This document shows positions 1 through 13,887 of a stretch of DNA of 23,130 bases, piece after piece; the first letter of the stretch is position 1, and each line of letters starts with the position of its first letter. A program made the translations under genes and the position numbers. Location: the UHGV virus genome UHGV-0077013. One strand, 5' to 3'. This DNA is from a virus. Under the pieces are notes generated by a model that worked only from the letters and a program-made list of their open reading frames with translations, was not told where the DNA came from and did no database searches.

Positions 1-678
1 TTATCTAAAGTTACTTATTACTCGATACCTTATGCTTTGGTTACTCGCATCAAGTACTTCGAATTTAGCGCCTTTATAGCCAATTGTTTTAGACTCCGCG
101 AGATCATACTCAACATCGTTGTTGAAGGCCGGGCGCGCTGTATTCGCTGAAAATTCACGATATCCAATGTTGATTTTGTTTCCGACCCTTCCGTTGTAAA
201 GCAGAGCTTGCTGGAAAGATGAGTCACCACTGATGTTCAGATTAACCTTTTCGATCGGCATGTTGGTTTCACAGGTGGTAGCGCCAAAAACTGTTATTAC
301 ACATAAGGCATTATTTTTCTTTTCTACCATGATGCCCTGCCACATATCGGCAAGAGCTGCCTTTTCCACATTGGCTGAATCAGCACCGTTTGTGAGAAAG
401 TAATAATCTGCCTTGTTATCCTCACCAACCTTTTTCAGCATCCCCGGAGTAATCGTATAAGCCCAGGAAACTCTCGCGGGAGCATTAACCTTCAAACCTT
501 CGAACTTCTGTGACTCACCCTGCTTAATCATCGAATCACCGACATAAGCTGTATTAATGCTTCCTACAGGAGGCTCACTATAACTTTCTGTTTTTGGTAA
601 ATAATTATACTTTGGAGATGTACATCCCCCGAGTAAAAGAGCCATGCCGACAACTGAATAAACTGTTAGAATTTTCAT
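1..678 (-). CDS. Predicted lipoprotein (moron/cargo candidate), function unknown
   Basis: Complete ORF with stop at 1-3. ATG at 676-678 gives a signal peptide with lipobox (MKILTVYSVVGMALLLGGC). The track's longer version begins with TTG at 718-720. Spot counts give about 33% GC in the first 60 nt against about 55% in the structural genes. Sits directly after the tape measure gene on the same strand. Confidence 0.6.
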   Translation of the reverse strand: MKILTVYSVVGMALLLGGCTSPKYNYLPKTESYSEPPVGSINTAYVGDSMIKQGESQKFEGLKVNAPARVSWAYTITPGMLKKVGEDNKADYYFLTNGADSANVEKAALADMWQGIMVEKKNNALCVITVFGATTCETNMPIEKVNLNISGDSSFQQALLYNGRVGNKINIGYREFSANTARPAFNNDVEYDLAESKTIGYKGAKFEVLDASNQSIRYRVISNFR

Positions 679-759
679 ATCCCTATTCCCATCATTAAAT
701 AATCGGACTAATCCTACCAAGAATCAGCAAAACGACAAAACCCGTACTTAAGCTGGCTA

Positions 760-2541
760 TTAGCCCCCCATACCAAACCGGGTGTAACCAACGTCGTGAT
801 TCACGTCGATACCACTGGAGCGGGTATCGGTCACCCGCATCCAGGGAGGCGCATCCTTAAACGAGACCGTAATCTCGCCTTCAGCCTTCTTCGGCGCAGC
901 CTGAACTATCTGATACGGATTGTATCCCTGAGCAGAAACGCCTGTACCGTACGCCCCATAGCCACCGCCCCCCCACTGAGTCGCATTGGCTGCAACCACC
1001 GTGTCGCTGGCACCATCAGTAAACCATTCAATAATCGGCTTCAGCTTGTCCCACATATCCTGAAACCACTTAACAACCGGCCCCCAGTTATTGATCACCA
1101 TCCCCAGCGGCGACCAGGCAAAAACTTTCTTAAGGAGTTCCCAGCCAGCCTCAAAATAAGGACCAATGGTTTCCCAGAGTTTCTTAAAATAAGGTCCGAC
1201 AACATCCCAGTTAGTGATAATTAATCCCGCAGCCAGGGCTATCGCCGTCGCAATCATGCCAATCGGCGTCATCGACATGATCCTGCTGACAATACTGATG
1301 GCACCGCCAACGCCCATCAATCCCAGTTTCAGAATCGCAAGACCGGCAGCAAGCCCGACGACGCCGCGAATAACCCGGGGATTTTCATCCGCAAACTTCG
1401 TGAATTTTTCCCCCAACTCCCCCAGCCATTGCGTGATATTTTTGGCGTCACCAGAAAATGCGCCGCCAATAGCCGCAAGGCCGTTAGTTGCGGTCCCCGT
1501 CATTGCCTCCCACAGGTTGGACAGCGTACCAAGCTGTGCCTGAACACGTTTATTCAGGCTGGCCTGTTTATTCATCTTCTGCTGGATCTGATCGTAGCCA
1601 TCCTTTCCTTTATCGATTAGTGCATTGACCACCTGAAGGGTTTCGGCATCATCACCAAATATTGCCTTAAGTACACCTGTTCGCTTAACGTCGGTCAGTT
1701 TTCGCAGCTTTGCCAGTTGCCTGAACATGTTATCAAGACCGCCAAAACTTCCTTTGCCGTCAGTAAAATCGAGCTGTACCCCGAGTTTCTGGCGGGCCAT
1801 GACTTTATTGACGTCCCTGATTTTCTTAACGCTTAATCCGGACTGGATAACTTTTCGCAGGGCATTACCTGCCGACTCCCCGTTCATCCCCATCTGATCC
1901 ATCATGACGCTGATGGGGGCAAGGCTCTGTGCAGCCTGAAGACCGTCCTTGTTCACCATCTTCAGAACAGAACTGGTTTTAGTGAAGAAGGACAACATGT
2001 TGGTATCGTCAACGCCCAGATAAAACGCCTTCTGGATAGTGTCGAACAGCCCCATCATGTCTTCTGACGCCGTTCCGGTAGCATCCTGCATCTTTGCAGC
2101 AAACTCAGCAGCCGCTTCCGGTGTTTTTTTCAGTTGTACCGCAAGATAAGCTGTCGCTTTACCCACACCACCCAGAATGTTTTCTGCCGGGATCCCCTGA
2201 CGCACCAGCATCTGCATCATGTTCTGGAAATCAGCCGTTGTACCGGGTAGCTGGTTACCCAGGCCAATAGCCAGTTTATTGATGTCCTGAAAGCTCTTTC
2301 CAACCTCGCCGTTCGCATCCATCATGGCGACTTTCAGCCCGGTAGCGGCGTTTTCCTGATCGGCATAAGATTTCAGGGAAAGCGTCAGACCCGCTGCCAG
2401 TCCTCCACCAAGCGCCAGCCCACCCTGTGACGCTTCTTCCGCCTGGCGTTTAAATCCCCGGATTTTCTTTTGCATTTTCGACAGCGCGGGAGAAAGCCTG
2501 TCGACACCGGTGATCAACGCCTTAAGCTCAAATTCAGCCAT
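760..2541 (-). CDS. Tail tape measure protein
   Basis: 593 aa, Ala/Gly-rich with C-terminal hydrophobic segments (GLAAGLAILKLGLMGVGGAISIV...). Lies immediately downstream of the frameshifted chaperone pair, the canonical position. ATG at 2539-2541. Confidence 0.85.
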   Translation of the reverse strand: MAEFELKALITGVDRLSPALSKMQKKIRGFKRQAEEASQGGLALGGGLAAGLTLSLKSYADQENAATGLKVAMMDANGEVGKSFQDINKLAIGLGNQLPGTTADFQNMMQMLVRQGIPAENILGGVGKATAYLAVQLKKTPEAAAEFAAKMQDATGTASEDMMGLFDTIQKAFYLGVDDTNMLSFFTKTSSVLKMVNKDGLQAAQSLAPISVMMDQMGMNGESAGNALRKVIQSGLSVKKIRDVNKVMARQKLGVQLDFTDGKGSFGGLDNMFRQLAKLRKLTDVKRTGVLKAIFGDDAETLQVVNALIDKGKDGYDQIQQKMNKQASLNKRVQAQLGTLSNLWEAMTGTATNGLAAIGGAFSGDAKNITQWLGELGEKFTKFADENPRVIRGVVGLAAGLAILKLGLMGVGGAISIVSRIMSMTPIGMIATAIALAAGLIITNWDVVGPYFKKLWETIGPYFEAGWELLKKVFAWSPLGMVINNWGPVVKWFQDMWDKLKPIIEWFTDGASDTVVAANATQWGGGGYGAYGTGVSAQGYNPYQIVQAAPKKAEGEITVSFKDAPPWMRVTDTRSSGIDVNHDVGYTRFGMGG

Positions 2542-2952
2542 GTGTGCGTTTCTCCTGCTCTATCCTGTTTGCCTGACTGACCAGTAAGGGAATTTCACTG
2601 ATCGGCATATTCAGCAATTCGAAAGGATTAATGCGCCAGTAGCTGGCGCAGTCAAAGAAGCGATCAGTGAGGTATTCAGCCGTCAGGCCTGGAGGAAAAA
2701 ACCAGCCACAAGCCACGCCGCTGCATTCAGGTCTGCCGGAGACATCTGGTCGACAGAGCTTTGCGGCACTTTCGCCAGCCGCACAATGTATTTCGACACC
2801 ACATGCGCCAGAAGTCTGACTGACTCATCCTGATTCATCTGGTAGGGATACCCCAGCTCGCGGACATCCTTCCCGGTGGGTTCATCAAACTCCAGTACGG
2901 AGAGTGTCTCGCCATGAGCAGTAATCGGTTTCTTTAACTCAAGCTCTTTCAT
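2534..2952 (-). CDS. Tail assembly chaperone, -1 frameshift fusion product (E+E' / G-T type)
   Basis: Slippery heptamer T_TTT_TTC on the minus strand (plus 2695-2701) in the 0 frame. The -1 frame continues as ...FFPPGLTAEYLTDRF... to a stop at 2534-2536, just before the tape measure ATG. Matches the track ORF 2534..2716. Confidence 0.6.
2683..2952 (-). CDS. Tail assembly chaperone, short in-frame product (P2 gpE-like)
   Basis: 89-aa ORF between the tail tube and tape measure genes. Its start overlaps the tube stop (TAATG). Contains a slippery heptamer near its 3' end. Confidence 0.75.
   Translation of the reverse strand: MKELELKKPITAHGETLSVLEFDEPTGKDVRELGYPYQMNQDESVRLLAHVVSKYIVRLAKVPQSSVDQMSPADLNAAAWLVAGFFLQA
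2695..2701 (-). other. Programmed -1 ribosomal frameshift slippery site (TTTTTTC)
   Basis: Minus-strand codons are GGT TTT TTC CTC CAG GCC TGA. The heptamer T TTT TTC fits the X_XXY_YYZ rule, and the -1 frame ORF extends 53 codons beyond it. Confidence 0.6.
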
Positions 2953-3308
2953 TACTGGTAATCCCCTTCTTCACCGTGGAACTCAAGATCAACCGTGCCT
3001 TCTTCGGCATTATGGTTCGCTTCGCCGTGCAGCCAGGCAGACGACAGTACATAGACCTGACCGTTCGCCAGCTCGGCAGTGATGGTCATCTCATCAGACG
3101 AGGTGATTTTGCTTACCGGAAAATTCTTCGGCACCTTGAAGGTCCCTTTGACATAAGGCGCACGGTGAGTTTCCTTGCGGTCCACAGAACCGTCCAGGCC
3201 GATGATGTCATCATTGACCGTCCTGTTCATGGGCACCTCAATGCCGCCGGTCAGCGATAGCTGCTGACCGTCAATTTTGAAATAACAGGTTCCCCCGATA
3301 CGGGCCAT
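2952..3308 (-). CDS. Tail tube protein (contractile tail)
   Basis: 118 aa, immediately downstream of the sheath gene with a TAATG stop/start overlap. Size and position are typical for a myovirus tube protein. Confidence 0.7.
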   Translation of the reverse strand: MARIGGTCYFKIDGQQLSLTGGIEVPMNRTVNDDIIGLDGSVDRKETHRAPYVKGTFKVPKNFPVSKITSSDEMTITAELANGQVYVLSSAWLHGEANHNAEEGTVDLEFHGEEGDYQ

Positions 3309-4804
3309 TATGCAGACTCCTCTGAATACTGAAGACGGAACTGGTTAACCACGGCAAAAACACGCAACTGGTTAACATAGTCAGGCGGGAACAGCGTGTT
3401 CAGGCGGTTCGGATCGCTGGCATCACGCTCCACAACCAGGTACTGCTTAAACAGTTCGTAGTTTTCCACGATCCCCGCACGCTCAAGCTGACGGTAGGTT
3501 GCCAGCAGTTCCCCTTTGATTACCGCCGGGGTGACAATCGCCTGACCGGGACCAAAGCGGGTACCGTCGCTGGCAAGCTTGTGACGCCCGTACTTACTGG
3601 TAATGACGGATTTCAGTTTGCGCAGTACATACGCACTGGTATGCAGCGTCTCGCTGTCGAGGTAGCTGTTATCCGCAACCCCGTAAGCATTTTTCCTGTA
3701 CGTGGTGACATCACGCTGAATGCGCAGCACCCCGCTTTCGACATACGCCGTTGCCACGCCATGAGACAGCAGGGTCTGTTGCTCGGTCATCGTGAACCGT
3801 TTCCCCTTCGGCGCAGGCAGCATACCCACCAGCTCACCGGTCTGCGTGGGACGTGCCGGATCGTTGCGGATAAACACCGCTGCGCGGGCGGTACGGCTTG
3901 CCGCCAGCTCATCGGCAGGCGTCTGGGTGTCTTTTTCGTACCCAGCCAGGGTAATGTGCTGCTGGTTAAACTGGTCACCTGCGGTCACCAGTTCTGACAG
4001 CGTGCCGATCTTTGCCGTATACACATGACCATACAGCTGACGCGCATAGCTCCAGCGACCGCTGGTATCGTTCATCTCGGTCACCAGCGTGTTAACGGAG
4101 GCCGTGTCGTTGAACGGCAGGCCGATATAATCAAACGGCTCATCCGCCATTGCAGCCACCGCGCCGGTGAGAACAGGAGAGCCCGTTCCGGCGGTCCCCG
4201 TCGCCACGGCAATCTGTACGCCCGCAGGCAGCACTTCGCCCCCACCAAAGCCGTAGTAATTGAGGCTGACAGGAATTTCATTCCCGCAAAGCCCCTTATG
4301 ACGCGCGGTCAGTGTGACCACGCCTGCCGAAGATGAGGCCGTAAACGGCAGGGCCGGAACGGCATTGATGGCATCCTGGATACTGCTGGCAATCGTCGTG
4401 ACGTTATCGCCGTTGGTCACCGGTGCCTGCACGCGGGTACGTCCCACATACACATTCACCGTGCCGGTTTCGGTTGCTGCTCCGGTCACCGTCAGCGTAA
4501 CCGTTGCCGCCGCGCCTGTGGCTTCCGGAACGGCAATCACATACAGCTCGCCAAACGGGTCGGTCTGGCGATAAGCCTCGACCATACGCGCCAGCTGACT
4601 TCCCGCACCACAAATCTGGCGTGCATAGTCTGCCGACGGCATCAGCACCAGACTGTTGGCAACAATCTCTGCACCGTTATTGGCGTGACCAATCAGCAAC
4701 GATGCCCCGCTGTCCTGTGCAGTATTCGCCGCCGAGTTATCCATTTCCGCATAAAACAGCGGAACCAGCGTATTCGACGGAATGGTGTTAAAGCTTATCG
4801 TCAT
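3308..4804 (-). CDS. Tail sheath protein
   Basis: 498 aa with a sheath-like composition and size. AGGTGA Shine-Dalgarno 7 nt before the ATG at 4802-4804. Followed by tube and chaperone genes. Confidence 0.85.
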   Translation of the reverse strand: MTISFNTIPSNTLVPLFYAEMDNSAANTAQDSGASLLIGHANNGAEIVANSLVLMPSADYARQICGAGSQLARMVEAYRQTDPFGELYVIAVPEATGAAATVTLTVTGAATETGTVNVYVGRTRVQAPVTNGDNVTTIASSIQDAINAVPALPFTASSSAGVVTLTARHKGLCGNEIPVSLNYYGFGGGEVLPAGVQIAVATGTAGTGSPVLTGAVAAMADEPFDYIGLPFNDTASVNTLVTEMNDTSGRWSYARQLYGHVYTAKIGTLSELVTAGDQFNQQHITLAGYEKDTQTPADELAASRTARAAVFIRNDPARPTQTGELVGMLPAPKGKRFTMTEQQTLLSHGVATAYVESGVLRIQRDVTTYRKNAYGVADNSYLDSETLHTSAYVLRKLKSVITSKYGRHKLASDGTRFGPGQAIVTPAVIKGELLATYRQLERAGIVENYELFKQYLVVERDASDPNRLNTLFPPDYVNQLRVFAVVNQFRLQYSEESA

Positions 4805-4966
4805 CGGTGTTCACCTTTTTATTCACGCGCCGGATATCACCCGCTGCTTCACGGCGCAGCCAGTAGTTGTTCTCGTCAACATTTCGCCCTTCGGCGGGCA
4901 AAAGGTCACCGCGGGCAGGGTCAGGCACTGACCGCCCTTTAACAGGTTTCACAAACATGAAGATTC

Positions 4967-5527
4967 TCAGGAAGGAAGGGTTATTTCGGTGTGATGTTCG
5001 ATATCGCCGTCAGGCCCGTTACCGGGATCGAGATAATCAACATCAATCGCCAGCGTTCGCAGTTCATCCAGACTGTTCAGCTCATCCTGCTGGCGGGTAT
5101 CGTCTTCGGTCAGCTCGCTGATGACCGAAAAATCGAACTGATAAATCAGCTCATGACGATTCAGATCCAGCAGCGTGCCGCCGTCATAGGTAATCGGGTT
5201 ACCGCACGCTTCCGGGTTCCAGCCCAGCAGGGCCTTAAAGAGCATCTGCCGGACATCGTCCACCACATCATACGAGGCAAACTGACCGCGCTCATCACGC
5301 CCGTTACTCAGTATGACAACCACGGAGAAGCCCTCTTTCAGCTCCTGCCAGTAGTCGGTCTGGCTTTTGTTTTCTCCCGGAGAGTCATCACCCGGTACCA
5401 CATACGCCGCCGGGAGTTTCAGCTTTCCGACCTCCGGCAGATTTTTGAACTGGGCCGCGCCTGCAACCCGGTTTTCAAAATACGGGCAGCGGGCACGCAG
5501 CGCAGCAATAACAGGCGTCAGTTTCAT
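4967..5527 (-). CDS. Tail-associated protein (tail completion / terminator candidate)
   Basis: 186-aa ORF between the neck genes and the sheath, with an ATGA overlap to the upstream gene. Function inferred from position only. Confidence 0.45.
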   Translation of the reverse strand: MKLTPVIAALRARCPYFENRVAGAAQFKNLPEVGKLKLPAAYVVPGDDSPGENKSQTDYWQELKEGFSVVVILSNGRDERGQFASYDVVDDVRQMLFKALLGWNPEACGNPITYDGGTLLDLNRHELIYQFDFSVISELTEDDTRQQDELNSLDELRTLAIDVDYLDPGNGPDGDIEHHTEITLPS

Positions 5528-6030
5528 CTGTGTCGTCGCTCCGGCTTCAGTGATTTACGCAATTCCCGCGCCAGAAAATAGCGTGTCCAGCTGCGGTTCT
5601 TTTCAAGAGTTTCCACCATAAAGTTATTACGTGGAGCCAGTCGCCAGCCGCTGCCACCGGATGCACCACGATGATGGCTGCGACGACGCTTTGCCCCTCG
5701 CCTCACGCCATAGAACAGAAAAGCCGGATAAAAATCACCGGTGATACGGCGGTTTCCCTCTCCATTACGCTGGTTAGGGGCTATACGTGCCATAAAACCA
5801 GGGCGATGTTTACTGGCTCTGGGTACCATGTAACCAATCGAACGAGCCAGGCGTCCGGTCTGATAACCGGGGTTTTCACCCGGTGCCGACCGCGCACGGC
5901 GCATCACCAGCCGACGGGCATCACGCATATGACGCTGACCAATCGTGACAAACGCCCGCCTGACACGGGCGCGGTTAAAGCGCATCTCCGCGGGCTGCTG
6001 AAAATCAACGTGCAAAAAGGAAGTCGTCAT
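5524..6030 (-). CDS. HK97 gp10-like virion morphogenesis / tail component protein
   Basis: 168 aa, basic, with a PGENPGYQTGRLARSI motif resembling the HK97 gp10 family. Position follows the head-closure gene. Confidence 0.6.
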   Translation of the reverse strand: MTTSFLHVDFQQPAEMRFNRARVRRAFVTIGQRHMRDARRLVMRRARSAPGENPGYQTGRLARSIGYMVPRASKHRPGFMARIAPNQRNGEGNRRITGDFYPAFLFYGVRRGAKRRRSHHRGASGGSGWRLAPRNNFMVETLEKNRSWTRYFLARELRKSLKPERRHR

Positions 6031-6415
6031 TGTTGCCTCCGTGACTCTGCCTACATTCGCCCAGCTCCGTACACTCCAGCAGCAGAAAGCGCCGCGCCCC
6101 GTTCAGATCGCGCTGACGTTTCACCCGGTACACACTGTCACCGCAGACCACCTCATAATCAGCGGTGATCCCCCGGCGGTAACGAATGGTGATGTAATGG
6201 GTGATGGCGTCCCCGGTCTGCGCGGTTTCCTGCCAGGTGGTGGCACTGGTCTGGATAACCTTCGCCCATGTCCGGAACGTAACCGGGTATTGAGGCTCCA
6301 CGCCAAAGTTATCCGCGGGCATATCCACCCGCTGGCGAATCAGGACGCGTTTATTCAGTTCGCCGGGGTCCGGCAGAATGTAGGTTGCGCTGGTCTGCGC
6401 CTGACGAATTTTCAT
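6005..6415 (-). CDS. Head closure / head-tail joining protein
   Basis: 136 aa with ...ITHYITIRYRRGIT... resembling head-tail joining proteins. Coupled to the connector gene. Confidence 0.6.
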   Translation of the reverse strand: MKIRQAQTSATYILPDPGELNKRVLIRQRVDMPADNFGVEPQYPVTFRTWAKVIQTSATTWQETAQTGDAITHYITIRYRRGITADYEVVCGDSVYRVKRQRDLNGARRFLLLECTELGECRQSHGGNNDDFLFAR

Positions 6416-6735
6416 TGCGGAAAGTACCTGTACGGGCCGACAAGCCAGCCAAAACTCTGCGGCATGTCGAGTTTCTCCACTTCCGTAACCGACGAGCGGT
6501 TTTCGTAAAAATGGCTGATAAGCATCAGCATCCCCAGACGAATATCATCCGGCAGTTGCAGCCCGTCCGGATCGCTGTCCGGAATGGTTTCATCCGGAGC
6601 ATAGAGCTTCCGGTTCAGATACGTTTCCGTCCGCTTTTGCGCCGCACAGGCCAGCAGTTGCAGATGGCGGTCATCAGCATCGAAATCCTCATCCAGCCGG
6701 AGTTGGGCTTTAATCTCTTCCATTGTCAGAAGCAT
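6412..6735 (-). CDS. gp6-like head-tail connector protein
   Basis: 107 aa; the N-terminus MLLTMEEIKAQLRLDEDFDADD...LLACAAQ is typical of gp6-like connector proteins. Located after the capsid gene. Confidence 0.7.
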   Translation of the reverse strand: MLLTMEEIKAQLRLDEDFDADDRHLQLLACAAQKRTETYLNRKLYAPDETIPDSDPDGLQLPDDIRLGMLMLISHFYENRSSVTEVEKLDMPQSFGWLVGPYRYFPQ

Positions 6736-6737
6736 AC

Positions 6738-6938
6738 TCAGCCCTCTTTACTGGTCGTGGCTTTTTTCTCTTTTGTCGCTTTACTGCTTTTTGCACTGGT
6801 TCCGCGCTCTGCTAACCCGGCCTGAAGTGCAATCTCCTGCACCCGGGCAGGAAGCGCCCCGTCGTCATACTCACCGGCCCGAATGACCTCAACACGCATA
6901 CCGTCCGGTGACCATTTCAGATCTTGTTTCAGGATCAT
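6738..6938 (-). CDS. Small hypothetical protein between capsid and connector genes
   Basis: 66-aa ORF with ATG at 6936-6938, coupled to the connector gene start. Lys/Ser/Thr-rich C-terminus and only a weak Shine-Dalgarno. Confidence 0.4.
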   Translation of the reverse strand: MILKQDLKWSPDGMRVEVIRAGEYDDGALPARVQEIALQAGLAERGTSAKSSKATKEKKATTSKEG

Positions 6939-6959
6939 GATTCTTCACCCGTCAGAACA

Positions 6960-6980
6960 GGGGGCGCGGTTCCGCGCCCC
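6960..6980 (-). terminator. GC-rich perfect hairpin just 3' of the major capsid gene (attenuator / mRNA stabiliser candidate)
   Basis: GGGGGCGCGGTTCCGCGCCCC is a perfect 8-9 bp GC stem lying 8 nt downstream of the capsid stop (6988-6990). No U-tract follows on the transcript, so it is not a classic intrinsic terminator. Confidence 0.4.
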
Positions 6981-6987
6981 TGAGTGA

Positions 6988-8193
6988 TTACGCCGCTGCA
7001 ATCTTCAGCAGTTTGATGGCCTGCGAATCGACCAGCATCCCGCCGGTGCGCTTGGTGGTATAAAAACCGACAAACGGTTTATTGGTGTACGGGTCACGCA
7101 GAATGCGGGTGCCGATACGGTCAACGATGGTGTAACCCCGTTTGAAGTTACCAAATGCAATGGCTTTCGCATCAGCGGCGATATCCGGCATCTGTTCGTT
7201 TTCAGCGATACCGTAACCCGCCAGAGAGGACGGCTGCCCCAGTTCCAGCCCCGGACGCCACAGATAGTTACCCTCGGTGTCTTTCAGCAGACGGATGGCA
7301 AACAGGCTGTTGTTGTTCATCATGAACTTCGCGCCAGTGCGGTGTGCCTTACGCAGCGTGTAAATCAGTTTGATAATGGCGTCTGCGGTCACCGCGGTCG
7401 CTTCGCCGGATACAATATGCTGAAGTTTGCCGAACGCCCGGACCTTGTCGGTTTCATCGGTGGATTCATACGCCAGGAACCCTTTCGGCTTCTTGGTGCC
7501 ATCGCCTGAGGTAAAGGCAATTTCTTCCTGTTCGGCAAATTCGGTTGCCAGCTCGCTGTTGATCCAGGCCTCCACGTTGAAGAAGGCATCGTCCAGCATT
7601 TTCTGGGTAGCCTGCGGGTTGCCGTAGATTTCCCCCATGAGAGGTTCAATCAGCTCCAGTCTGGAGGTGGCAGTCTGGGATCGCGTATCCGTTTCCCCCA
7701 CCCATCCGGAAGCCGTACCGCCCAGATTCACCAGTTTTTTGTAGTCGGAACCGCCAACGGTGATCACCGTGGCTTCCTGACGCATCACCACTTCATCTTT
7801 CAGCAGGTTAAGAATGTTGCGATCCAGTTCTTCCGGCACGGCATAGCCACCGTCTTCATCGGTGCCCACCTGCAATGCCTTGCGCTCCAGATCGCGCAGA
7901 CCGTCTTCACGGCCTTTACGCAGGAAGCCCACAAACGCCTCTTTATGCTCGGTGGCCAGTTTATTTTGCGCACCACCTGCCGGACGTTTCAGCTCAAGCA
8001 GCTCTTTTTCAAGGTCGCTTTTGAGATTTTCCAGCTCGCTGAGTTTCCCGTTCAGGGTTTCCACCTGCCCGGCAAGTTTGCCTTTTTCCTGCTCAATCGC
8101 ATCCACGCGCTTGTCGTTCTTTGCTTTGAAGTCGTCAAACTTCTGCTGCAGTTCCTGCGCGACCTGTTCGACATCTTTAATATCTACCGCCAT
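6988..8193 (-). CDS. Major capsid protein, HK97-like with N-terminal delta domain
   Basis: 401 aa. The N-terminal ~100 aa are coiled-coil-like (KLSELENLKSDLEKELLELK), followed by an HK97-fold-like body. Strong AGGAGA Shine-Dalgarno before the ATG at 8191-8193. Gene order is portal, protease, capsid. Confidence 0.9.
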   Translation of the reverse strand: MAVDIKDVEQVAQELQQKFDDFKAKNDKRVDAIEQEKGKLAGQVETLNGKLSELENLKSDLEKELLELKRPAGGAQNKLATEHKEAFVGFLRKGREDGLRDLERKALQVGTDEDGGYAVPEELDRNILNLLKDEVVMRQEATVITVGGSDYKKLVNLGGTASGWVGETDTRSQTATSRLELIEPLMGEIYGNPQATQKMLDDAFFNVEAWINSELATEFAEQEEIAFTSGDGTKKPKGFLAYESTDETDKVRAFGKLQHIVSGEATAVTADAIIKLIYTLRKAHRTGAKFMMNNNSLFAIRLLKDTEGNYLWRPGLELGQPSSLAGYGIAENEQMPDIAADAKAIAFGNFKRGYTIVDRIGTRILRDPYTNKPFVGFYTTKRTGGMLVDSQAIKLLKIAAA

Positions 8194-8207
8194 CGTATTT
8201 CTCCTGA

Positions 8208-8894
8208 TTAGAAGTTCAGATTTTTCAGTGCATTCAGTGCAGAGCTCACATCCTCAGCGTCGCGCAGGGACAGTGCGCCATAGCCCCCGGCCATGAATGC
8301 TTTGGCCTGGGTACGGGAGAGTCCGACATCACGCAGGACTCTTTCGATTTTTTTCTGTTCGGGGATTTCCCCGCGGGCCAGTGCGTTCTTGACGTCGCTG
8401 ATCCGCGCCTCGTCGTTAGACGGGAACGTCACCAGGCTGACTTCCCAGAGGTCGATTTCTTTCAGCAGAAAGGCTTCTTTGCTCCGGTCGTATTCCCAGT
8501 CTTTCAGGACGTACCCAATAGAAAGGCCGGTTAACGAACCGGCCTTCATGTGTGCATGTGCGCGTTTTGCGAGGGGATCATCATCAATAAGCAACCGTCC
8601 CCTGACGTAAAGCCCGACATCGTCTTCCTTCATTTCGGTGTAAACACCGATGGGTTCATCCATGCGGTGCTGCCAGAGCAGCGCAGGTAACGCTTTTCTG
8701 TCACTCCACGCCCGCAGGGAAGCAGCAAATGCCCCGGACATCACCACATCATCGTGGCTGTCCTTTACACCAAAGACGGAGCCATACCCTTCAAACTCAC
8801 CGGAGTCACTGACAGATTTCAGACTCAGCGGTACATCAAGACGTTGTTTCGTCTGCATTGGCGTTATCCTTCTGCTTACCGGCCTTACTGCCAT
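8208..8894 (-). CDS. Prohead protease (HK97 family)
   Basis: 228 aa with ...FEGYGSVFGVKDSHDDVVMSGAF..., typical of HK97-type prohead proteases. It overlaps the portal 3' end, so the true start may be the internal ATG near 8858. Confidence 0.8.
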   Translation of the reverse strand: MAVRPVSRRITPMQTKQRLDVPLSLKSVSDSGEFEGYGSVFGVKDSHDDVVMSGAFAASLRAWSDRKALPALLWQHRMDEPIGVYTEMKEDDVGLYVRGRLLIDDDPLAKRAHAHMKAGSLTGLSIGYVLKDWEYDRSKEAFLLKEIDLWEVSLVTFPSNDEARISDVKNALARGEIPEQKKIERVLRDVGLSRTQAKAFMAGGYGALSLRDAEDVSSALNALKNLNF

Positions 8895-10077
8895 CGGAGG
8901 GTTTCGTGGTCATGTTCATCGGTGTGAGATAGACATCACCACCGGGACGCGGATTCATATCTTCCAGGTCGCGGCAGTCATTGGGAGAGTAAATTCCCCA
9001 GTTAATCCCGGTGGCGTAGGCTTCAAAACGGGACTTCATATCCCCGCGCAGTAACGCCCCGGCGTTAAATTTGGCGTAATAAACGCCCTGCTTACTTTTT
9101 CGTACCAGTCCGGTGTTGATCCGCTGTTCGATGCGGGTCAGATACGGCACCAGTGAATAGTTGATAAATCCGAGCCCCAGTTCTTCGATATTGTTGAAGG
9201 TGGCGCGATCGGTGTTCTGCACCATGTGCAACGGCACCCGGAACAGACGACAGATTTCTTCAAGCTGAAACTTGCGGGTTTCCAGGAACTGGCTGTCCTC
9301 GGCGTTCAGCGCCATCGACTTCCAGTCCAGCCCCATCTCAAGGATCATCGGGCGGTGAGCATTACCAAGCCCGGTGTGACGCTCCTCAAAATCTTTCTTC
9401 AGGCGCTCGTAAGCCTGATCTGACAGCGTCTGCTCTGTACGCAACACACCCGACGTCACCGCGCCATTGCTGAACAGTCTGGCCCCGTGCTCTTCGGTCG
9501 CTGCCGCCAGCGATATTGCCTCGCGGGCATAGGCGATGGGATTCAGTCCCACCAGACCGTCCAGCGTCAGCGTGCGCACATGCCAGATATCTTCCTGGCT
9601 CAGTACATCCGTGGAGCCGTCCGGGAATGTGACCTGGTAAACCGGTTCCCAGCTACTGTTAAGCTTCGGTACCACACAACCTGGGTCGACGGGCAGCAGT
9701 TCAGCCACTTCGCCAAATGCTTTCACTTTGTAGGCGTAAAAGTTTCCCCGCAGGCACAGACAGGTGACCACCAGCTCCCAGAACTCCTGCGGCGTCATAT
9801 AGCCATTGGGACGCGTGGAGATCAGCTTATGCAGACGTTCGCCGGTGGCTCTCTGTTTCAGGCTGCCGTTCAGGTGATACAGGTTGCAGGGCAACATCCC
9901 GACCGACTCCGCCAGCACCCTGACGCAGGAAAAAACCGCCGTCAGTCGCATGGCCCGCTGGCTGCTGATCTGCTTTCCGGTATAGGTGTCATATGACAGC
10001 CCGATAGCATCCGCCAGCTCTGCTGGCGTGGTCACCGGTGCGTCACTTTTTCGTTGAAATAATCCCGAAAAGAACAC
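8836..10077 (-). CDS. Portal protein (HK97 family)
   Basis: 413 aa, in the canonical position after the large terminase. GTG start at 10075-10077 preceded by a GGAGGT Shine-Dalgarno. Confidence 0.88.
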   Translation of the reverse strand: MFFSGLFQRKSDAPVTTPAELADAIGLSYDTYTGKQISSQRAMRLTAVFSCVRVLAESVGMLPCNLYHLNGSLKQRATGERLHKLISTRPNGYMTPQEFWELVVTCLCLRGNFYAYKVKAFGEVAELLPVDPGCVVPKLNSSWEPVYQVTFPDGSTDVLSQEDIWHVRTLTLDGLVGLNPIAYAREAISLAAATEEHGARLFSNGAVTSGVLRTEQTLSDQAYERLKKDFEERHTGLGNAHRPMILEMGLDWKSMALNAEDSQFLETRKFQLEEICRLFRVPLHMVQNTDRATFNNIEELGLGFINYSLVPYLTRIEQRINTGLVRKSKQGVYYAKFNAGALLRGDMKSRFEAYATGINWGIYSPNDCRDLEDMNPRPGGDVYLTPMNMTTKPSDGSKAGKQKDNANADETTS

Positions 10078-10259
10078 TATTTACCTCCGCCGACAGACGG
10101 CTGTGTACGGTCGAGATATCGCGCCACCAGCCACGACCAGAACAGGCACAGCGCCCCGGCAACAACAAACCCCGCCGGGGGATAAATCAGCCAGGCACCA
10201 TACGCCAGCAAAAGCGCACCCAGCACGCCCACCAGAGGCGCGAGAATCAGCATGATCAT
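10077..10259 (-). CDS. Small two-helix membrane protein, function unknown
   Basis: 60 aa ([26 protein letters not shown]...[19 protein letters not shown]) with two predicted transmembrane segments. GAGGTAA Shine-Dalgarno 5 nt before the ATG. Wedged between the terL stop and the portal start. Confidence 0.55.
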
Positions 10260-10270
10260 AATTACCTCAG

Positions 10271-12004
10271 TTAAAGCGAGCGGATCCCGTAGGACTCAAT
10301 GTGATCAGACAGCGTGTCTTCTTTCTCGTACAGCATGGCTCTGCCAACCGCCATAATCAGCGCAACTGCACCATCAATTTTGTTTTCCGCCTGCTCTTTG
10401 ACGGGCTTCACCACATCATCGTTACCCGGAATGGTTTTGCCGACCACATTGCCGATACACCAGGTCATGATGGGATTGCCGTCATGATGAAAGCGCTCCG
10501 ATTCAATCGCCGCTTCCAGTTCTTTCATCGGATCGGACATGTTGGTGTAGTTCTGAATGATGGTGATGGGGTTCAGGTCTTCATCAGCAAGGTCATGCGA
10601 CAACCCGGTCGCCCCGAAGGGGTCGATGGGTGACTCACTGACCGGGCTGATTTTGTTCGCCGCTTTGGCCTCCTCGAGGATGTAGCGATAATCCACCTCT
10701 GCACCATCGGTAACGGTCAGAACGCCCATTTCCACCCATTTCTGAAAGCGTTCGGCTGTCCGGCGATCTTCATTTTTCTCGACGCTGTACACCGTGTCAT
10801 ACGGTACCCAGAAGCGCGGAGCCACACTGTAGTAATGCGTTTTACCGTCAATCTCGCGGGTATAAAGTCGCGCCATGCTGTTCATATCCAGCTTACGCGC
10901 CAGGTCAAAGGCCAGAATGCACGGCTGCCCCTCGAACTGCTCAAGGGTCAGTGATTTATCCTCGCAGCTCTGCCAGCTCACCAGGTTGAAATACGCCGAA
11001 CGCGCCGACACCCAGATATTGAGGTGTTTTGTTTTAAAGACGTTTGCCAGACGGGCGTTATTTTTCGCACGCTGCTGCTGACTTAACAAAAATTCGCGAT
11101 AAACCGACACGCCAATATTTGGATTGGCTTTTTCCAGCACCTGCGGGTCGGTCCAGTCGTCACCTTCATCAACGGTATAGATGATCCCGAACAGTTCATC
11201 GTTAGGCACCGAGCCGTTGAGCATCTCGATAACTTCCCGCCGCTTGTCGTAGCACGGCCCCTCAATGTTGTACCCGGCAGTAGTAATGGCCCACATCAGT
11301 GGCTGACGTCGCGCCCCCATCCCGGTAAGCATCGTGGTGTAAAGCGCATCGGTGGCGTGCTCGTGATATTCATCCACCACCGCACAGTGGGGTGATGATC
11401 CATCACCGGGGTTACCGATCAGCGGTTCAAACCGCGCGCCATCCTCCGGACGGTTCATGTTTGAGGCGTTAACCTCAATCCCGAACGCTTCCGTCAGCAT
11501 GGGTGTGCGTTTACACATCAGTCGCGCCGGGCGAAAGACTTCCCACGCCTGTTTCTCTGTCGTGGCACCGGAATACACTTCCGCGCCAAACTCGTTATCA
11601 CAGGCAAAACAATACAGGGCAACACCGGCAGAGATTGCTGATTTGCCGTTCTTACGGGGGATTTCGGTATACACCTCCCGGAAGCGGCGCAACCGGGTGC
11701 CTTTATTGACCCAGCCAAACGCACAGCAGATCACAAATAGCTGCCACGGCTCCAGCGTGATGGGCATCCGTTTAAATGCCCACTCACCCTTGGTGTGCGG
11801 CAACAGCTGAATAAATTTGGCGGCCCGTTCAGCCAGATCCTTGTCGAAGCGGTAACGAAACGACTTACTTTTTTCCGCCATCAGGTCATCAAGATGGCGC
11901 TGGCAGGCCTGAATCACAAACTGGCAGGCCACAATCTTTCCGCGCACGACATCCCGGGCATACTGATTGGCAGCATTTACGTTGGGGTAAGATTTCCGGC
12001 TCAT
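10271..12004 (-). CDS. terL: Terminase large subunit
   Basis: 577 aa with Walker A-like IPRKNGKS and a C-terminal nuclease-like region. Follows the small terminase gene. Confidence 0.92.
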
Positions 12005-12017
12005 GATTCGATGATTT

Positions 12018-12503
12018 TCAGATTGTCAGAAACGGGTTAGTGGCTTTCTTCTTCCCCGCCAGGCCAATCAGACGCTGTCGGCTGCTGGGGTCGAGTCCGA
12101 GCATTGCCCCCGTGCTGCTCATCTCGGACTCCTGTTCTTTTTTGGCGGTCAGCTCCGGATTTTTGACCATGCCACCCATTGCACCGGTGATGGTGTTACC
12201 CTGTCTGGCAATATTTTTCACGGCACGTCGCCAGAACTCATAGGCCACACACCACCGCTCAAGTACCGCCAGGTCAGTCACGCACAGCAGGCCCTGACCG
12301 CAGAGTTCTTTGGTTGTCAGTTGCCACATGATCGTGGCGAGAGGGAGATCTTCTTCAGCGAACCACTCCGGTGGCTCAACACCTTTGATGGGCGTAAAAA
12401 CAGGTTCATCTTTATTCAGGGCTCGCTTGCCGGGGTTTCCGGCCAGCGCCTTGCGCGCCGTTGGCTTGGGGCGACGCCCGGAACGCCCCGCCGTTCCAGC
12501 CAT
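12018..12503 (-). CDS. terS: Terminase small subunit (P27-family-like)
   Basis: N-terminus [30 protein letters not shown] is typical of P27-family small terminases. Preferred start is the ATG at 12501-12503 with an AGGAG Shine-Dalgarno; the track ORF begins at an upstream GTG (12512). Confidence 0.85.
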
Positions 12504-12713
12504 ATGCGGCACTCCTGGTTAAATTTCATTTTTCGCGGGTATAAAAAAACGATGGGGCGGGCAGTCCCGGATAGTCAGGGCTGTAGAGATTTGACTACCC
12601 CCTCCCCACTGGATTCAGGTTACTGCTATTCCGTTAATCGCTGCTTACGGGGATAGCTGCGTTGTGATTTTGACCATTCAGGTCGCCGCTATTTCCTCAC
12701 CGATTGGGTGCTA

Positions 12714-12742
12714 CGCGTGCGCGTACTTGTCCCGAAATACCA
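12714..12742 (-). promoter_or_regulatory. Conserved ~27-nt motif in the late-operon leader, also present in the early region at 19061-19089
   Basis: Plus-strand CGCGTGCGCGTACTTGTCCCGAAATACCA here versus GCGCGTGCGTACTTGTCCCGAAAACACCA at 19061-19089. Degenerate copies of the GTGCGCGTACT core occur at 18850 and 18966. Confidence 0.35.
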
Positions 12743-12753
12743 GAAACCGCCAG

Positions 12754-12775
12754 CCAGAGGATGATTTCCCTCTGG
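12754..12775 (-). terminator. Hairpin 3' of the PerC-like gene (weak terminator / attenuator candidate)
   Basis: Inverted repeat CCAGAGG-ATGATTTC-CCTCTGG. Only short U-runs follow on the transcript. Confidence 0.3.
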
Positions 12776-12779
12776 TGGT

Positions 12780-13061
12780 CTACCTTTGCCTCTTGCCGCC
12801 ATTTAACCGGAAGGCGTTACCGTTCGGTTGCGCTATCCCCATGCGGTGTTGCGTTTCGGTAACAGCTTTATGCAGGTCGCCAAAGTCCTCAACCTTCACG
12901 GGCGGGCGCTTCACGTTCTCCAGACACGTTTCACGGCGGCGCTTTATCCATTCCCGATCATCGTCCTCGGTGCATAACAGCATGACTTCCATCCATCGCG
13001 CTGCGGCGCGTCGGTACAGCCCTTTTGCTTCCAGATCCTCGGCTTTACTGTCGTTTACCAT
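12780..13061 (-). CDS. PerC-family-like small transcriptional regulator
   Basis: 93 aa; AEDLEAKGLYRRAAARWMEVM...DREWIKRRRETC resembles the PerC/Pch-type activator pattern as recalled. GGGGAG Shine-Dalgarno; sits directly upstream of the packaging operon. Confidence 0.5.
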   Translation of the reverse strand: MVNDSKAEDLEAKGLYRRAAARWMEVMLLCTEDDDREWIKRRRETCLENVKRPPVKVEDFGDLHKAVTETQHRMGIAQPNGNAFRLNGGKRQR

Positions 13062-13063
13062 GT

Positions 13064-13534: not shown

Positions 13535-13833
13535 AGATATTTCCTCATGTAGTCACTACCTCCGGGGATAATTTTCATTTCTTCCCTTAAAGGCCACTGC
13601 TCCGCCATTGCTGCGGTCGAGTGATTCCCGTCATCACGTCCGGCCTGTGCTGCCGTCCAGTGTGTTGCATATTCTGTAAATCCAATTTCTGCTGGCTGCC
13701 TCATCCAGTGGGCGATCATCCTCAAGGTCATTTGCAGGCTTTGGGTGTCGCCCTGTAATGCGCGTTTGTCAGTAAACCCCTTCAATGCTTCACGCTCCTG
13801 ATAGGTCATTTTCTGGCTGGTTTCTGTATTCAT
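13531..13833 (-). CDS. Hypothetical protein
   Basis: 100-aa ORF with AAGGTGG Shine-Dalgarno and an ATGA overlap with ssb. Confidence 0.5.
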   Translation of the reverse strand: MNTETSQKMTYQEREALKGFTDKRALQGDTQSLQMTLRMIAHWMRQPAEIGFTEYATHWTAAQAGRDDGNHSTAAMAEQWPLREEMKIIPGGSDYMRKYL

Positions 13834-13887
13834 TGCCCACCTTCGTTATAAGCTACCCCCCCCATAGAATCTTTTTGGGGGTGTAAT

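What the first reader, a model, noticed from the sequence alone, without database searches (positions are those of the whole stretch)
1..678. AT-rich lipoprotein gene directly after the tape measure gene, where baseplate genes are expected
In contractile-tail modules the tape measure gene is normally followed by baseplate genes. Here an about 33% GC lipoprotein gene with a clear lipobox follows instead. It is either a moron inserted into the tail module (candidate superinfection-exclusion or receptor-blocking lipoprotein, as in Cor or Llp-type systems) or the prophage is truncated here and this is flanking or host DNA.
Basis: partly seen in the sequence, partly recalled or inferred. Interest (0 to 1): 0.45.

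Follow-up and report, generated by a model that had tools for sequence, protein, structure and literature searches.

The report
Lipoprotein moron beside phage tape-measure gene
A small, horizontally acquired gene for an exported outer-membrane lipoprotein of unknown function sits between the tape measure and baseplate genes of an otherwise normal SfV-like E. coli prophage; the same protein family turns up next to tape measure genes in many unrelated prophages, which hints at a role in blocking incoming phages, though nothing here proves it.

Summary
The gene is real: window 1-678, minus strand, 225 aa, lipobox LLGG|C, starting 81 nt after the tape measure (TMP) stop. Its GC is 41.9%, not about 33%, but that is still 2.7 SD below the window mean.

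It is an insertion. Phages SfV, SfII and SfI have TMP followed directly by the Mu N-like DNA-circularization gene. All 55 complete E. coli genomes that carry the lipoprotein have the order TMP, lipoprotein, terminator, gpN, baseplate. So the prophage is not truncated, and the protein is not a core tail part: only about 6% of SfV-type tail modules have it.

The protein belongs to a large uncharacterised family:
- It matches PHROG 1353 and has no Pfam, NCBIfam or PADLOC hit.
- About 3,070 clusters at 50% identity are found across many phyla.
- The lipid-anchor Cys is invariant, and so are two further Cys.
- It is under purifying selection (dN/dS 0.05-0.12).
- The predicted fold is confident, all-beta, and has no known relative.

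In phages the gene lies within two ORFs of TMP genes of at least three unrelated Pfam types (14 of 17 dereplicated lineages). My best guess is a superinfection-exclusion lipoprotein, by analogy with HK97 gp15, at confidence about 0.3. No experiment or homology supports this. A crude test for enrichment of defence genes nearby was negative.

The window itself appears to be a chimeric metagenome contig.

The parts
1..678 (-). Lipoprotein CDS (225 aa), the cargo of the moron. Its intrinsic terminator lies just outside the window, immediately left of position 1.
   Evidence: ORF and translation. PHROG 1353 matched over its full length, E 8.5e-97. No Pfam, NCBIfam or PADLOC family. dN/dS is 0.12 against the second E. 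coli allele and 0.05 against the Pseudocitrobacter copy. The AlphaFold model has pLDDT 92.4 and is all-beta. The terminator AAAACCTGCTTCGGCGGGTTTTTTT was found in relatives at L001 11966-11987; folding z is -3.56, with 0 of 200 shuffles as stable.
622..678 (-). Signal peptide and lipobox (residues 1-19; the lipid-modified Cys19 is codon 622-624). Residue +2 is Thr.
   Evidence: The sequence MKILTVYSVVGMALLLGG|CTS can be read directly. Cys19 is invariant in 77 homologues. 224 of 251 full-length members have a lipobox, and the residue after the Cys is A, T, V or S and never Asp. The LPAM_1 motif was hit in 11 of 77 members.
679..759 (-). 81-nt spacer between the TMP stop and the lipoprotein start. 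It holds the conserved 5' cassette, with the near-palindromic motif TAGGATTAGTCCGA at 703-716 and the RBS GGGAATAGGGAT before the ATG.
   Evidence: About 45-70 nt upstream of the ATG are conserved between the SfV-like context and two siphovirus contexts. The motif occurs once per locus, always upstream of the gene, in 22 enterobacterial loci. A similar 5' region precedes an unrelated 110-aa secreted-protein gene in another prophage. The scan found no consensus sigma-70 promoter on this strand. There is no significant hairpin (z -0.66) and no Rfam match.
760..997 (-). Diverged 3' end of the tape measure gene (its last ~80 codons). It is the right-hand recombination joint of the insertion in this lineage.
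   Evidence: Identity to SfV, SfII and SfI (97-98.7%) stops at window ~992-998. The protein alignment shows a variant C-terminus with a 20-aa deletion relative to SfV. This variant is found only in the ~24 genomes that carry the 100% lipoprotein allele. The 94% allele sits behind an SfV-type TMP end, so the linkage is not obligatory.
760..2541 (-). Tail tape measure gene (593 aa), the upstream neighbour in the late tail operon.
   Evidence: Pfam PhageMin_Tail PF10145, E 9.3e-27. Annotated as a tape measure protein in 54 E. coli genomes and in SfV, SfII and SfI.

Best explanation
The gene is a moron: a self-contained cassette made of a conserved 5' region, the lipoprotein gene and an intrinsic terminator. 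It was acquired horizontally and inserted between the tape measure gene and the Mu N-like DNA-circularization gene of an otherwise complete SfV-like (Mu-type tail) prophage of E. coli.

The product is inferred to be exported by Sec and lipid-modified on Cys19. Because residue +2 is Thr rather than Asp, it should be sorted by Lol to the outer membrane, where a disulfide-stabilised all-beta domain of about 200 aa faces the periplasm.

The function I commit to is superinfection exclusion, and this rests on inference only. In the lysogen, and late in the lytic cycle by read-through of the tail operon, the lipoprotein would interfere with an incoming phage after adsorption. The likely step is tail tip or tape measure passage through the periplasm and genome delivery. 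That is analogous to the TMP-adjacent HK97 gp15 moron and to Sie lipoproteins encoded in tail gene clusters.

My confidence that it is an inserted moron encoding an exported lipoprotein is about 0.9. The confidence given below applies to the exclusion function.
For: Insertion:
- SfV has TMP and gpN 45 nt apart with only a hairpin between them.
- The window and 54-55 E. coli genomes have TMP, lipoprotein, terminator, gpN.
- GC is 41.9% against 53%.
- The 5' region and terminator travel with the gene into different phage backbones.

Exported, functional protein:
- The lipobox Cys is invariant, and two further Cys are invariant.
- dN/dS is 0.05-0.12.
- The fold prediction is confident.

Link to phage tails:
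- In 14 of 17 dereplicated lineages with a recognisable TMP, the gene lies within 2 ORFs of it. Chance expectation is about 21%, binomial p about 1e-7.
- The TMPs belong to different Pfam types: PF10145, PF20155, and PF06791 with or without PF24622 or PF09718.
- One cluster of copies at least 89% identical sits after the TMP in the myovirus and before the TMP in a siphovirus.

Precedents:
- HK97 gp15 lies between the tail chaperone and TMP genes and blocks genome entry (PMC3594210).
- Lipoprotein genes inside the structural cluster of mEpimmI coliphages exclude superinfecting phages (PMC11893012).

Anecdotal defence neighbours:
- The Fels-2 homologue sits next to an AbiU gene in the P2 A-Q hotspot.
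- A Geobacter copy is on an integrase island with a type III-A retron.
Against: - There is no experimental datum, and no sequence or fold similarity to any characterised exclusion protein.
- No promoter was detected, so expression from the repressed prophage is unproven.
- Most family diversity is not near a TMP: 58 of 75 clusters. Many copies are solitary genes between housekeeping genes, with no conserved partner.
- 40-50% identity across phyla is unusual for a factor that recognises rapidly evolving phage proteins.
- A crude near-versus-far PADLOC comparison showed no enrichment of defence genes around chromosomal copies.
- In siphoviruses the site between tube/chaperone and TMP also holds other cargo (Arc, Ant, pRha, a toxin-antitoxin-like pair). 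TMP adjacency may therefore just mark a permissive hotspot.
Confidence: 0.3

Rival explanations
1. It is a periplasmic immunity or inhibitor lipoprotein against an exogenous envelope-attacking enzyme or toxin, such as a peptidoglycan hydrolase, a bacteriocin or a T6SS effector. Phage tail-associated lysins could be among the targets. Prophages and islands would carry it as an orphan protective gene.
For: - Rare, patchy, cross-phylum distribution with high conservation and constant length: 161 species hits and about 3,070 clusters.
- It is a stand-alone gene with no partner.
- It is periplasmic with a conserved Cys pair, and has many invariant polar residues clustered in the C-terminal GYREF...RPAFNNDVEYD motif.
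- Some neighbouring TMPs carry SLT lytic transglycosylase domains.
Against: - No cognate toxin gene is nearby in any locus.
- The SfV-type TMP has no recognised hydrolase domain.
Confidence: 0.2
2. It is a lysogenic-conversion fitness or virulence factor unrelated to phages. Examples would be serum resistance, adhesion or envelope-stress tolerance, as with the Bor/Iss or Lom morons.
For: - It is a prophage moron encoding an outer-membrane lipoprotein, the same class as Bor/Iss. A related prophage (NT1F10) also carries iss.
- It is found in E. coli from pigs, humans and poultry.
Against: - There is no similarity to Lambda_Bor, TraT or Lom.
- The family is widespread in free-living environmental bacteria (Planctomycetes, Nitrospirota, marine Alphaproteobacteria), where host-serum or adhesion roles make little sense.
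Confidence: 0.15
3. It is a lytic-cycle helper. It would be co-transcribed with the tail genes late in infection and exported to modify the dying cell's envelope, for example to stop progeny virions re-adsorbing to debris (the second role of T5 Llp) or to block late superinfection.
For: - It has the same orientation as the late tail operon, and there is no significant terminator between the TMP stop and its start (z -0.66).
- No independent promoter was detected.
- It is co-oriented with tail genes in every phage context inspected.
Against: - Most family members are not in phages at all.
- 94% of SfV-type tail modules, and all isolated SfV-like phages, lack it.
- In Fels-2 it sits in the lysogeny-side A-Q hotspot, not in a late operon.
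Confidence: 0.15
4. The prophage is truncated at this point, and the lipoprotein is flanking host DNA or the edge of a decayed element.
For: In the source metagenome contig (ENA ERZ772887 NODE_848), which is identical to the window over 12.5 kb, the sequence beyond the terminator is the E. coli rpsI-sspA intergenic region and not gpN.
Against: - The switch lies inside a 21-nt stretch (GCTTCGGCGGGTTTTTTTATA) that is identical in the moron terminator and the rpsI terminator. The contig has 3x coverage and also joins two elements at a 98-nt repeat, which is the signature of a de Bruijn mis-join.
- All 55 complete genomes with the gene have gpN next. Four other contigs with the identical TMP also continue into gpN, with baseplate and fibre genes following in the inspected loci that reach that far.
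- The gene is absent from 5,363 of 5,426 E. coli genomes, so it is not core host DNA.
Confidence: 0.03
5. The lipoprotein is a structural or assembly component of the tail.
For: Only its position inside the tail operon, and its recurrent adjacency to TMP genes.
Against: - It has a Sec/lipoprotein signal, so it leaves the cytoplasm where tails assemble.
- It is absent from SfV, SfII and SfI, which are viable phages, and from about 94% of homologous tail modules.
- Most homologues are outside phages.
Confidence: 0.02

Closest known systems
HK97 gp15 moron (Cumby et al. 2012; reviewed in PMC3594210)
   Same: It is an extra gene inserted in the late tail operon directly beside the tape measure gene. 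It is absent from close relatives, deviates in composition, and encodes an envelope protein. gp15 is expressed from the prophage and blocks genome entry in a tail-dependent way.
   Different: gp15 is a small inner-membrane protein of the YebO family found only in Enterobacteriaceae. The protein here is a 225-aa outer-membrane-type lipoprotein of an unrelated, cross-phylum family. Its expression and its exclusion activity have not been shown.
Cor (phi80, N15, HK022, mEp167), T5 Llp and the mEpimmI Lpp lipoproteins
   Same: They are phage-encoded lipoproteins whose genes lie within or beside tail genes, and they exclude superinfecting phages (PMC11893012; PMC3594210).
   Different: From my own knowledge, those proteins are small (roughly 60-80 aa) and act by inactivating a specific outer-membrane receptor such as FhuA, LamB or OmpA. 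No similarity was detected here: tblastn over 50,697 phage records hit none of those phages. The present family is three times larger, has its own fold, and is mostly non-phage.
Ltp of Streptococcus thermophilus phage TP-J34
   Same: It is a prophage lipoprotein on the outer face of the membrane that blocks DNA injection. PMC3952083 describes it as the prototype superinfection-exclusion lipoprotein. That its target is the incoming phage's tape measure protein comes from my own knowledge.
   Different: It comes from a Gram-positive host, is encoded in the lysogeny module, and is helical. There is no homology.
Bor/Iss and TraT outer-membrane lipoproteins
   Same: They are outer-membrane lipoproteins encoded by prophages or plasmids that change lysogen properties. 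An iss gene is present in the related NT1F10 prophage.
   Different: There is no match to the Pfam families Lambda_Bor or TraT. Those proteins confer serum resistance or surface exclusion and are not linked to tail genes.
PHROG 1353 (unknown function)
   Same: Full-length profile match, E 8.5e-97. This is the family the protein belongs to.
   Different: The family carries no functional annotation, so membership says nothing about mechanism.

Membership tests
Moron (Juhala/Hendrix definition) | An extra gene lies between two genes that are adjacent in related phage genomes. | tested here: met
   SfV orf14 (TMP) and orf15 (gpN) are adjacent, 45 nt apart. The window lineage has the 678-nt gene between them.
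Moron (Juhala/Hendrix definition) | Base composition differs from the surrounding genes. | tested here: met
   41.9% GC against 52-54% in the flanks, 2.7 SD below the window mean.
Moron (Juhala/Hendrix definition) | It has its own transcription terminator. | tested here: met
   A hairpin with a 9-bp stem and a T-run lies directly after the stop codon in relatives. Folding z is -3.56. It lies just outside the window.
Moron (Juhala/Hendrix definition) | It has its own promoter and is expressed from the repressed prophage. | tested here: inconclusive
   A conserved 5' cassette travels with the gene. No consensus sigma-70 promoter was found on this strand. Expression cannot be tested with these tools.
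Bacterial lipoprotein (Lgt/LspA substrate) | An N-terminal signal peptide ends in a lipobox with an invariant Cys. | tested here: met
   LLGG|C at residues 15-19. The Cys is invariant in 77 of 77 homologues. 224 of 251 members have a lipobox. LPAM_1 was hit in 11 of 77 members. Lipidation itself was not tested.
PHROG 1353 | Full-length match to the family profile. | tested here: met
   E 8.5e-97; residues 1-225 against profile positions 1-227 of 230.
Cor / Llp receptor-blocking lipoproteins | Sequence homology to Cor or Llp. | tested here: not met
   tblastn against 50,697 phage records gave 34 hits. None were in T5-like, phi80, N15, HK022 or other Escherichia or Shigella phages.
Cor / Llp receptor-blocking lipoproteins | It blocks adsorption or DNA entry via a specific outer-membrane receptor. 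| not testable with these tools
   This needs plating, adsorption and receptor-function assays.
Lambda Bor/Iss; TraT | Match to Pfam Lambda_Bor or TraT. | tested here: not met
   No Pfam family at E<=0.01 for the protein. None beyond the lipid-attachment motif in 77 family members at E<=5.
Known anti-phage defence systems (PADLOC 2.0) | Match to a PADLOC model. | tested here: not met
   No match for the window protein at E<=1. No match for the Fels-2 homologue at E<=0.001.
Tail structural protein of SfV/Mu-type tails | Conserved across homologous tail modules and assembled in the cytoplasm. | tested here: not met
   It is present in 54 of 919 genomes with this TMP and absent from SfV, SfII and SfI. 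It carries an export signal.

The most novel reading that the evidence does not exclude
The family would be a widespread, previously unrecognised class of outer-membrane lipoprotein that blocks the periplasmic step of phage genome delivery (tape measure or tail-tip transit). It would do so by acting on a conserved envelope feature rather than on a specific receptor. That would explain three things: why it is conserved from Enterobacteria to Planctomycetes, why it is stand-alone, and why temperate phages with unrelated tails repeatedly park it next to their tape measure genes.
Probability: 0.15. Interest if true: 0.7.

Novelty: new variant of a known kind. Interest (0 to 1): 0.4.

Why it matters
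Morons in tail operons are a known source of prophage-encoded protection, but few have been characterised. This one belongs to a large, well-conserved lipoprotein family (thousands of clusters, no Pfam entry, no structural relative) that nobody seems to have studied. The family shows a statistically clear habit of sitting beside tape measure genes of unrelated types. If it does exclude phages at the periplasmic step, it would add a broadly distributed envelope-level defence, and a simple single-gene system in E. coli to study how tails cross the periplasm. If it does not, it is one more hypothetical moron. In either case the tail module here is ordinary and complete.

Tried and rejected
- **Family searches.** Pfam, NCBIfam and PADLOC scans of the protein gave no family. 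A per-member Pfam scan of 77 homologues gave only the lipid-attachment motif.
- **Conserved neighbour.** I clustered ORFs from 80 genome loci and ran Pfam on 144 adjacent ORFs. No partner was found in more than 2 loci, apart from integrases (12 of 80) and phage structural genes.
- **Defence-island enrichment.** I compared PADLOC hits among 150 ORFs within 3 kb with 150 ORFs 6 or more kb away. There was no enrichment near the gene. The AbiU, retron and PLD neighbours are therefore anecdotes.
- **Obligatory linkage to the TMP C-terminal variant.** Rejected, because the 94% allele sits behind an SfV-type TMP end.
- **Promoter and RNA elements.** The promoter scan found none on the gene's strand. 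Hand inspection gives only weak TTGGTA-18-AATGAT. Rfam on 1-1200 found nothing. Folding of the upstream spacer was not significant.
- **Literature.** A search by accession numbers and by PHROG id found no papers. STM2726 appears only in a microarray list.
- **Taking the window's integrase as the prophage's integrase.** Rejected, because it belongs to a separate satellite-like element.
Full report
**Observation.** The ORF is real. It occupies window 1-678 on the minus strand and encodes 225 aa beginning MKILTVYSVVGMALLLGG|CTSPK. It starts 81 nt after the stop of a 593-aa tape measure gene (760-2541; Pfam PhageMin_Tail, E 9e-27). That gene follows the chaperone, tube (PF10618) and sheath (PF04984) genes. 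The stated GC of about 33% is wrong. The gene is 41.9% GC (GC3 40%), against 52.4% for the TMP gene and 53.7% for the rest of the window. That is still 2.7 SD below the mean of 678-nt windows, and only one other patch (20.35-21.1 kb) is as low.

**What the surrounding element is.** Window 1-12607 is the packaging, head and tail module of an SfV-like serotype-converting prophage. It has a lambdoid-type early region in relatives, an HK97-like head and a Mu-like contractile tail. It is 97-98.7% identical to phages SfV, SfII, SfI, SKA5 and vB_EcoM-689R6, but only from window ~992-998 rightwards. In SfV the TMP gene (orf14) is followed after 45 nt, containing a hairpin, by orf15. That is the Mu N-like DNA-circularization gene, and the Mu P, gp45, gp46, gp47 and gp48 baseplate homologues and fibres follow.

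**The prophage is not truncated.**
- In E. coli NT1F10, GDSC2239PM and 10035776-3, in four further contigs with the identical TMP, and in IMG/VR contigs, the order is TMP, lipoprotein, gpN. Baseplate and fibre genes follow wherever the locus extends that far.
- GDSC2239PM is 99.8% identical to the window over 12.6 kb. Its prophage continues through fibres, gtrA/gtrB/gtr and intS to tRNA-Arg next to yfdC.
- A 601-nt probe across gpN, terminator and lipoprotein is contiguous in 55 complete genomes. That equals the number carrying the intact gene.
- Only 54 of 919 genomes with this TMP carry the gene, and no isolated Escherichia or Shigella phage does. It is therefore an optional insertion, not a tail component.

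**Anatomy of the insertion.**
- *Left edge.* A strong intrinsic terminator, AAAACCTGCTTCGGCGGGTTTTTTT, lies 12-15 nt after the stop codon, just outside the window. Its folding z is -3.56. The gpN start follows.
- *Right edge.* In this lineage the joint lies inside the TMP gene. The last ~80 codons are a diverged variant with a 20-aa deletion relative to SfV.
- *Second allele.* A second E. coli allele (94% nt, 95% aa, about 30 genomes) sits at the same site behind an SfV-type TMP end. The TMP variant and the lipoprotein are therefore not obligatorily linked. Some copies are separated from the TMP by IS421, or are reduced to a remnant by an IS3 element.
- *5' cassette.* About 45-70 nt upstream of the ATG travel with the gene into unrelated siphovirus backbones. 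This stretch includes the near-palindrome TAGGATTA(G/A)TCCGA and the RBS GGAATAGGGAT. A similar 5' region precedes an unrelated 110-aa secreted protein gene in another prophage.
- *Transcription signals.* I found no convincing sigma-70 promoter, no Rfam element and no significant hairpin between the TMP stop and the start codon. Late-operon read-through is therefore expected, and independent expression in the lysogen is unproven.

**The protein.**
- *Family searches.* There is no Pfam, NCBIfam or PADLOC family. It matches PHROG 1353 (unknown function) over its full length, E 8.5e-97. All database names are 'hypothetical protein', and no paper mentions its accessions.
- *Size of the family.* Homologues are abundant: 1,068 in the word-indexed search. 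An exhaustive profile search found 3,070 50%-identity clusters at E<=1e-3, of which 1,897 are at E<=1e-10. Almost all are single-domain proteins of about 225 aa.
- *Conserved residues.* Cys19 is invariant, and so are Cys126 and Cys136. I infer that these two form a periplasmic disulfide. There is a dense C-terminal motif, QQxLxYxGxxGxKIxxGYREF...RPAFNNDVEYD.
- *Lipoprotein features.* Of 251 full-length members, 224 have a lipobox. The residue after the lipid Cys is A, T, V or S and never Asp. 196 members have exactly two further Cys. By the E. coli +2 rule (established knowledge) this predicts Lol-dependent sorting to the outer membrane.
- *Selection.* dN/dS is 0.12 between the two E. coli alleles and 0.05 against a Pseudocitrobacter copy, so the protein is maintained by selection.

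**Where the family lives.**
- *Taxonomic spread.* A scan of one genome per species found 161 species. They include Alpha-, Beta-, Gamma- and Deltaproteobacteria, Planctomycetes, Nitrospirota, Gemmatimonadetes, Omnitrophica and Verrucomicrobia. Identity to the query is 40-50% and the length is constant.
- *No conserved partner.* ORF clustering found only integrases (12 of 80 loci) and phage structural genes (5-7 loci) recurring. No Pfam family occurs in more than 2 of 144 adjacent ORFs, many of which are housekeeping genes.
- *Phage records.* It occurs in temperate phages of Acinetobacter (Ab1656-2 and relatives) and Moraxella (Mcat28). At 28% identity (BLASTP E 7e-19; also a lipoprotein) it occurs in Fels-2, RE2010 and Klebsiella P2-like prophages.

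**Recurrent adjacency to tape measure genes.**
- Across 158 fetched loci the lipoproteins fall into 75 clusters at 80% identity. 17 clusters have a recognisable TMP in the locus, and in 14 of these the lipoprotein lies within two ORFs of it.
- Random placement would give about 21%, so the binomial p is about 1e-7.
- The TMPs are of unrelated Pfam types: PhageMin_Tail in the SfV-like myovirus; TMP_3; TMP_2 with TMP_4; TMP_2 with the lambda C-terminal domain; and TMP_3 with SLT.
- Copies at least 89% identical sit one ORF after the TMP in the myovirus and two ORFs before a TMP_3 gene in a Pseudocitrobacter siphovirus.
- Caveat: in the siphoviruses the same interval holds other cargo (Arc/Mnt, Ant, pRha, a DUF4258/HTH pair). 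It may simply be a permissive hotspot.

**Test of a defence association.**
- Some non-tail contexts look defence-like. The Fels-2 copy lies in the P2 A-Q hotspot next to an AbiU homologue (PADLOC E 2.7e-112). A Geobacter copy follows an integrase on an island with a type III-A retron. A Photobacterium copy neighbours a PLD-family (DrmC-like) gene, which itself neighbours a large AAA protein.
- A crude controlled comparison did not support this. I compared 150 ORFs within 3 kb of the gene with 150 ORFs 6 or more kb away, in 66 non-prophage loci. There was no excess of PADLOC hits near the gene. I therefore treat those neighbours as anecdotes.

**The source contig and the 'truncation' question.**
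- The window is 100% identical to ENA ERZ772887 NODE_848 (25,362 nt, coverage 3x) over window 1-12541.
- In that contig the moron terminator is followed not by gpN but by the E. coli rpsI-sspA intergenic region, which is present in all 5,426 genomes.
- The switch occurs inside a 21-nt stretch, GCTTCGGCGGGTTTTTTTATA, that is identical in the moron terminator and the rpsI terminator.
- At window 12510-12607 the contig switches, inside a 98-nt repeat, from the prophage to a separate ~11-kb satellite-like element. That element carries a P4-type integrase, AlpA, AntA, Ash, a D5-type primase-helicase, SSB and PerC. In complete genomes it sits next to yicC, and in GDSC2239PM it lies 1.3 Mb from the prophage.
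- The SfV genome's left end maps inside that repeat, at about window 12567-12570. The satellite therefore appears to carry the helper's cos region.
- Both joints look like assembly artefacts of a low-coverage metagenome. They are not evidence of a truncated prophage, and the integrase in the window is not the prophage's integrase.

**Mechanism.**
- *Shown:* an optional, compositionally foreign, terminator-bounded cassette in the late tail operon. It encodes a conserved, selected protein with a lipoprotein signal.
- *Inferred from established lipoprotein biology:* export by Sec, lipidation on Cys19, Lol sorting to the outer membrane, and a periplasm-facing disulfide-bonded beta domain.
- *Inferred by analogy only:* superinfection exclusion at a post-adsorption step.
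- *Precedents:* HK97 gp15 is the original moron. It lies between the tail chaperone and TMP genes, is prophage-expressed and blocks genome entry in a tail-dependent manner (PMC3594210). Lipoprotein genes within the structural cluster of mEpimmI coliphages exclude homologous phages and lambda (PMC11893012). From my own knowledge, Ltp of TP-J34 targets the tape measure protein. Tab is another moron that targets the TMP, though from the cytoplasm (PMC10884400).
- *Against:* no homology or fold link, no shown lysogenic expression, a mostly non-phage family, unusually high cross-phylum conservation, and the negative enrichment test.
- *Confidence:* about 0.3 for exclusion. About 0.2 for a periplasmic immunity or inhibitor protein against an exogenous envelope-attacking enzyme or toxin. 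About 0.15 for a Bor/Iss-like fitness factor. About 0.15 for a late lytic-cycle helper. The truncation and structural-component readings are essentially excluded.

**Comparison and novelty.** As a kind of thing (a moron in a tail operon encoding an envelope lipoprotein) this is well known. As a family it is uncharacterised and unrelated to Cor, Llp, Ltp, Bor/Iss, TraT or any PADLOC model. The cross-lineage association with TMP genes has, as far as my searches show, not been described. I rate it a new variant of a known kind and of moderate interest. The tail module itself is ordinary and complete, and the function remains a hypothesis that a simple plating experiment could settle.

Noticed in passing
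window 1 and the sequence just left of it (L181 12542-12838): The window is identical to a 3x-coverage metagenome contig (ENA ERZ772887 NODE_848). Beyond the moron terminator that contig continues into the E. coli rpsI-sspA intergenic region. The switch lies inside a 21-nt stretch shared by the two terminators, so it is probably a k=21 assembly chimera.
   Followed up: yes
window 12510-12607: A 98-nt stretch just upstream of the small terminase gene is shared by the SfV-like prophage and by the satellite-like element that makes up the right half of the window. The SfV genome's left (cos) end maps to about 12567-12570. The satellite therefore seems to carry its helper's cos region, and the contig probably joins two separate loci here.
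   Followed up: partly
window 12600-23130: This stretch is a P4/PICI-like element: a P4-type integrase (21862-23130), an AlpA-like 72-aa ORF (20526-20744), AntA (19246-20079), Ash (18654-19253), an 832-aa D5-type primase-helicase (14153-16651), SSB (13064-13534) and PerC. In complete E. coli genomes it is integrated next to yicC, far from the SfV-like prophage. No complete E. coli genome has it contiguous with the structural module.
   Followed up: partly
window 20350-21100: This is the second low-GC island of the window (minimum 35.7%). It lies between the AlpA-like ORF and a 216-aa ORF of unknown function next to the integrase.
   Followed up: no
just left of window 1 (L001 11966-11987): The terminator after the lipoprotein gene matches the E. 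coli rplM-rpsI operon terminator at 27 of 28 positions (AAAACC[T/C]GCTTCGGCGGGTTTTTTTATA). This could be convergence on a UUCG-loop terminator or capture of host sequence.
   Followed up: partly
window 679-745; L015 3970-4110: The 5' region of the lipoprotein gene (T-rich stretch, TAGGATTA... motif, RBS GGAATAGGGATATGAAA) is 81% identical to the region upstream of an unrelated 110-aa signal-peptide protein at the end of another E. coli prophage. This suggests a shared expression cassette among morons.
   Followed up: partly
window 760-997: The tape measure protein's C-terminal ~85 residues are a distinct allele with a 20-aa deletion relative to SfV. Among complete E. coli genomes it is found only in the ~24 that carry the 100% lipoprotein allele.
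   Followed up: yes
L003 4947-7643 (Fels-2 STM2726 and STM2723.1): The distant lipoprotein homologue in Fels-2 lies in the P2 A-Q cargo hotspot. Its neighbour is a 565-aa protein that matches PADLOC AbiU (E 2.7e-112), although the record annotates it as hypothetical.
   Followed up: partly
L014 4821-5933; L016 4001-5563: In some E. coli strains IS421 is inserted between the TMP and lipoprotein genes. In strain 2013C-4282 only the 3' 312 nt of the lipoprotein gene remain, next to an IS3 element and a truncated integrase.
   Followed up: no
H11/H58, NZ_CP104632.1 (100,861-bp record labelled plasmid): The same TMP and lipoprotein module also occurs on a 100-kb E. coli record classed as a plasmid. 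This may be a phage-plasmid or a mis-assigned contig.
   Followed up: no
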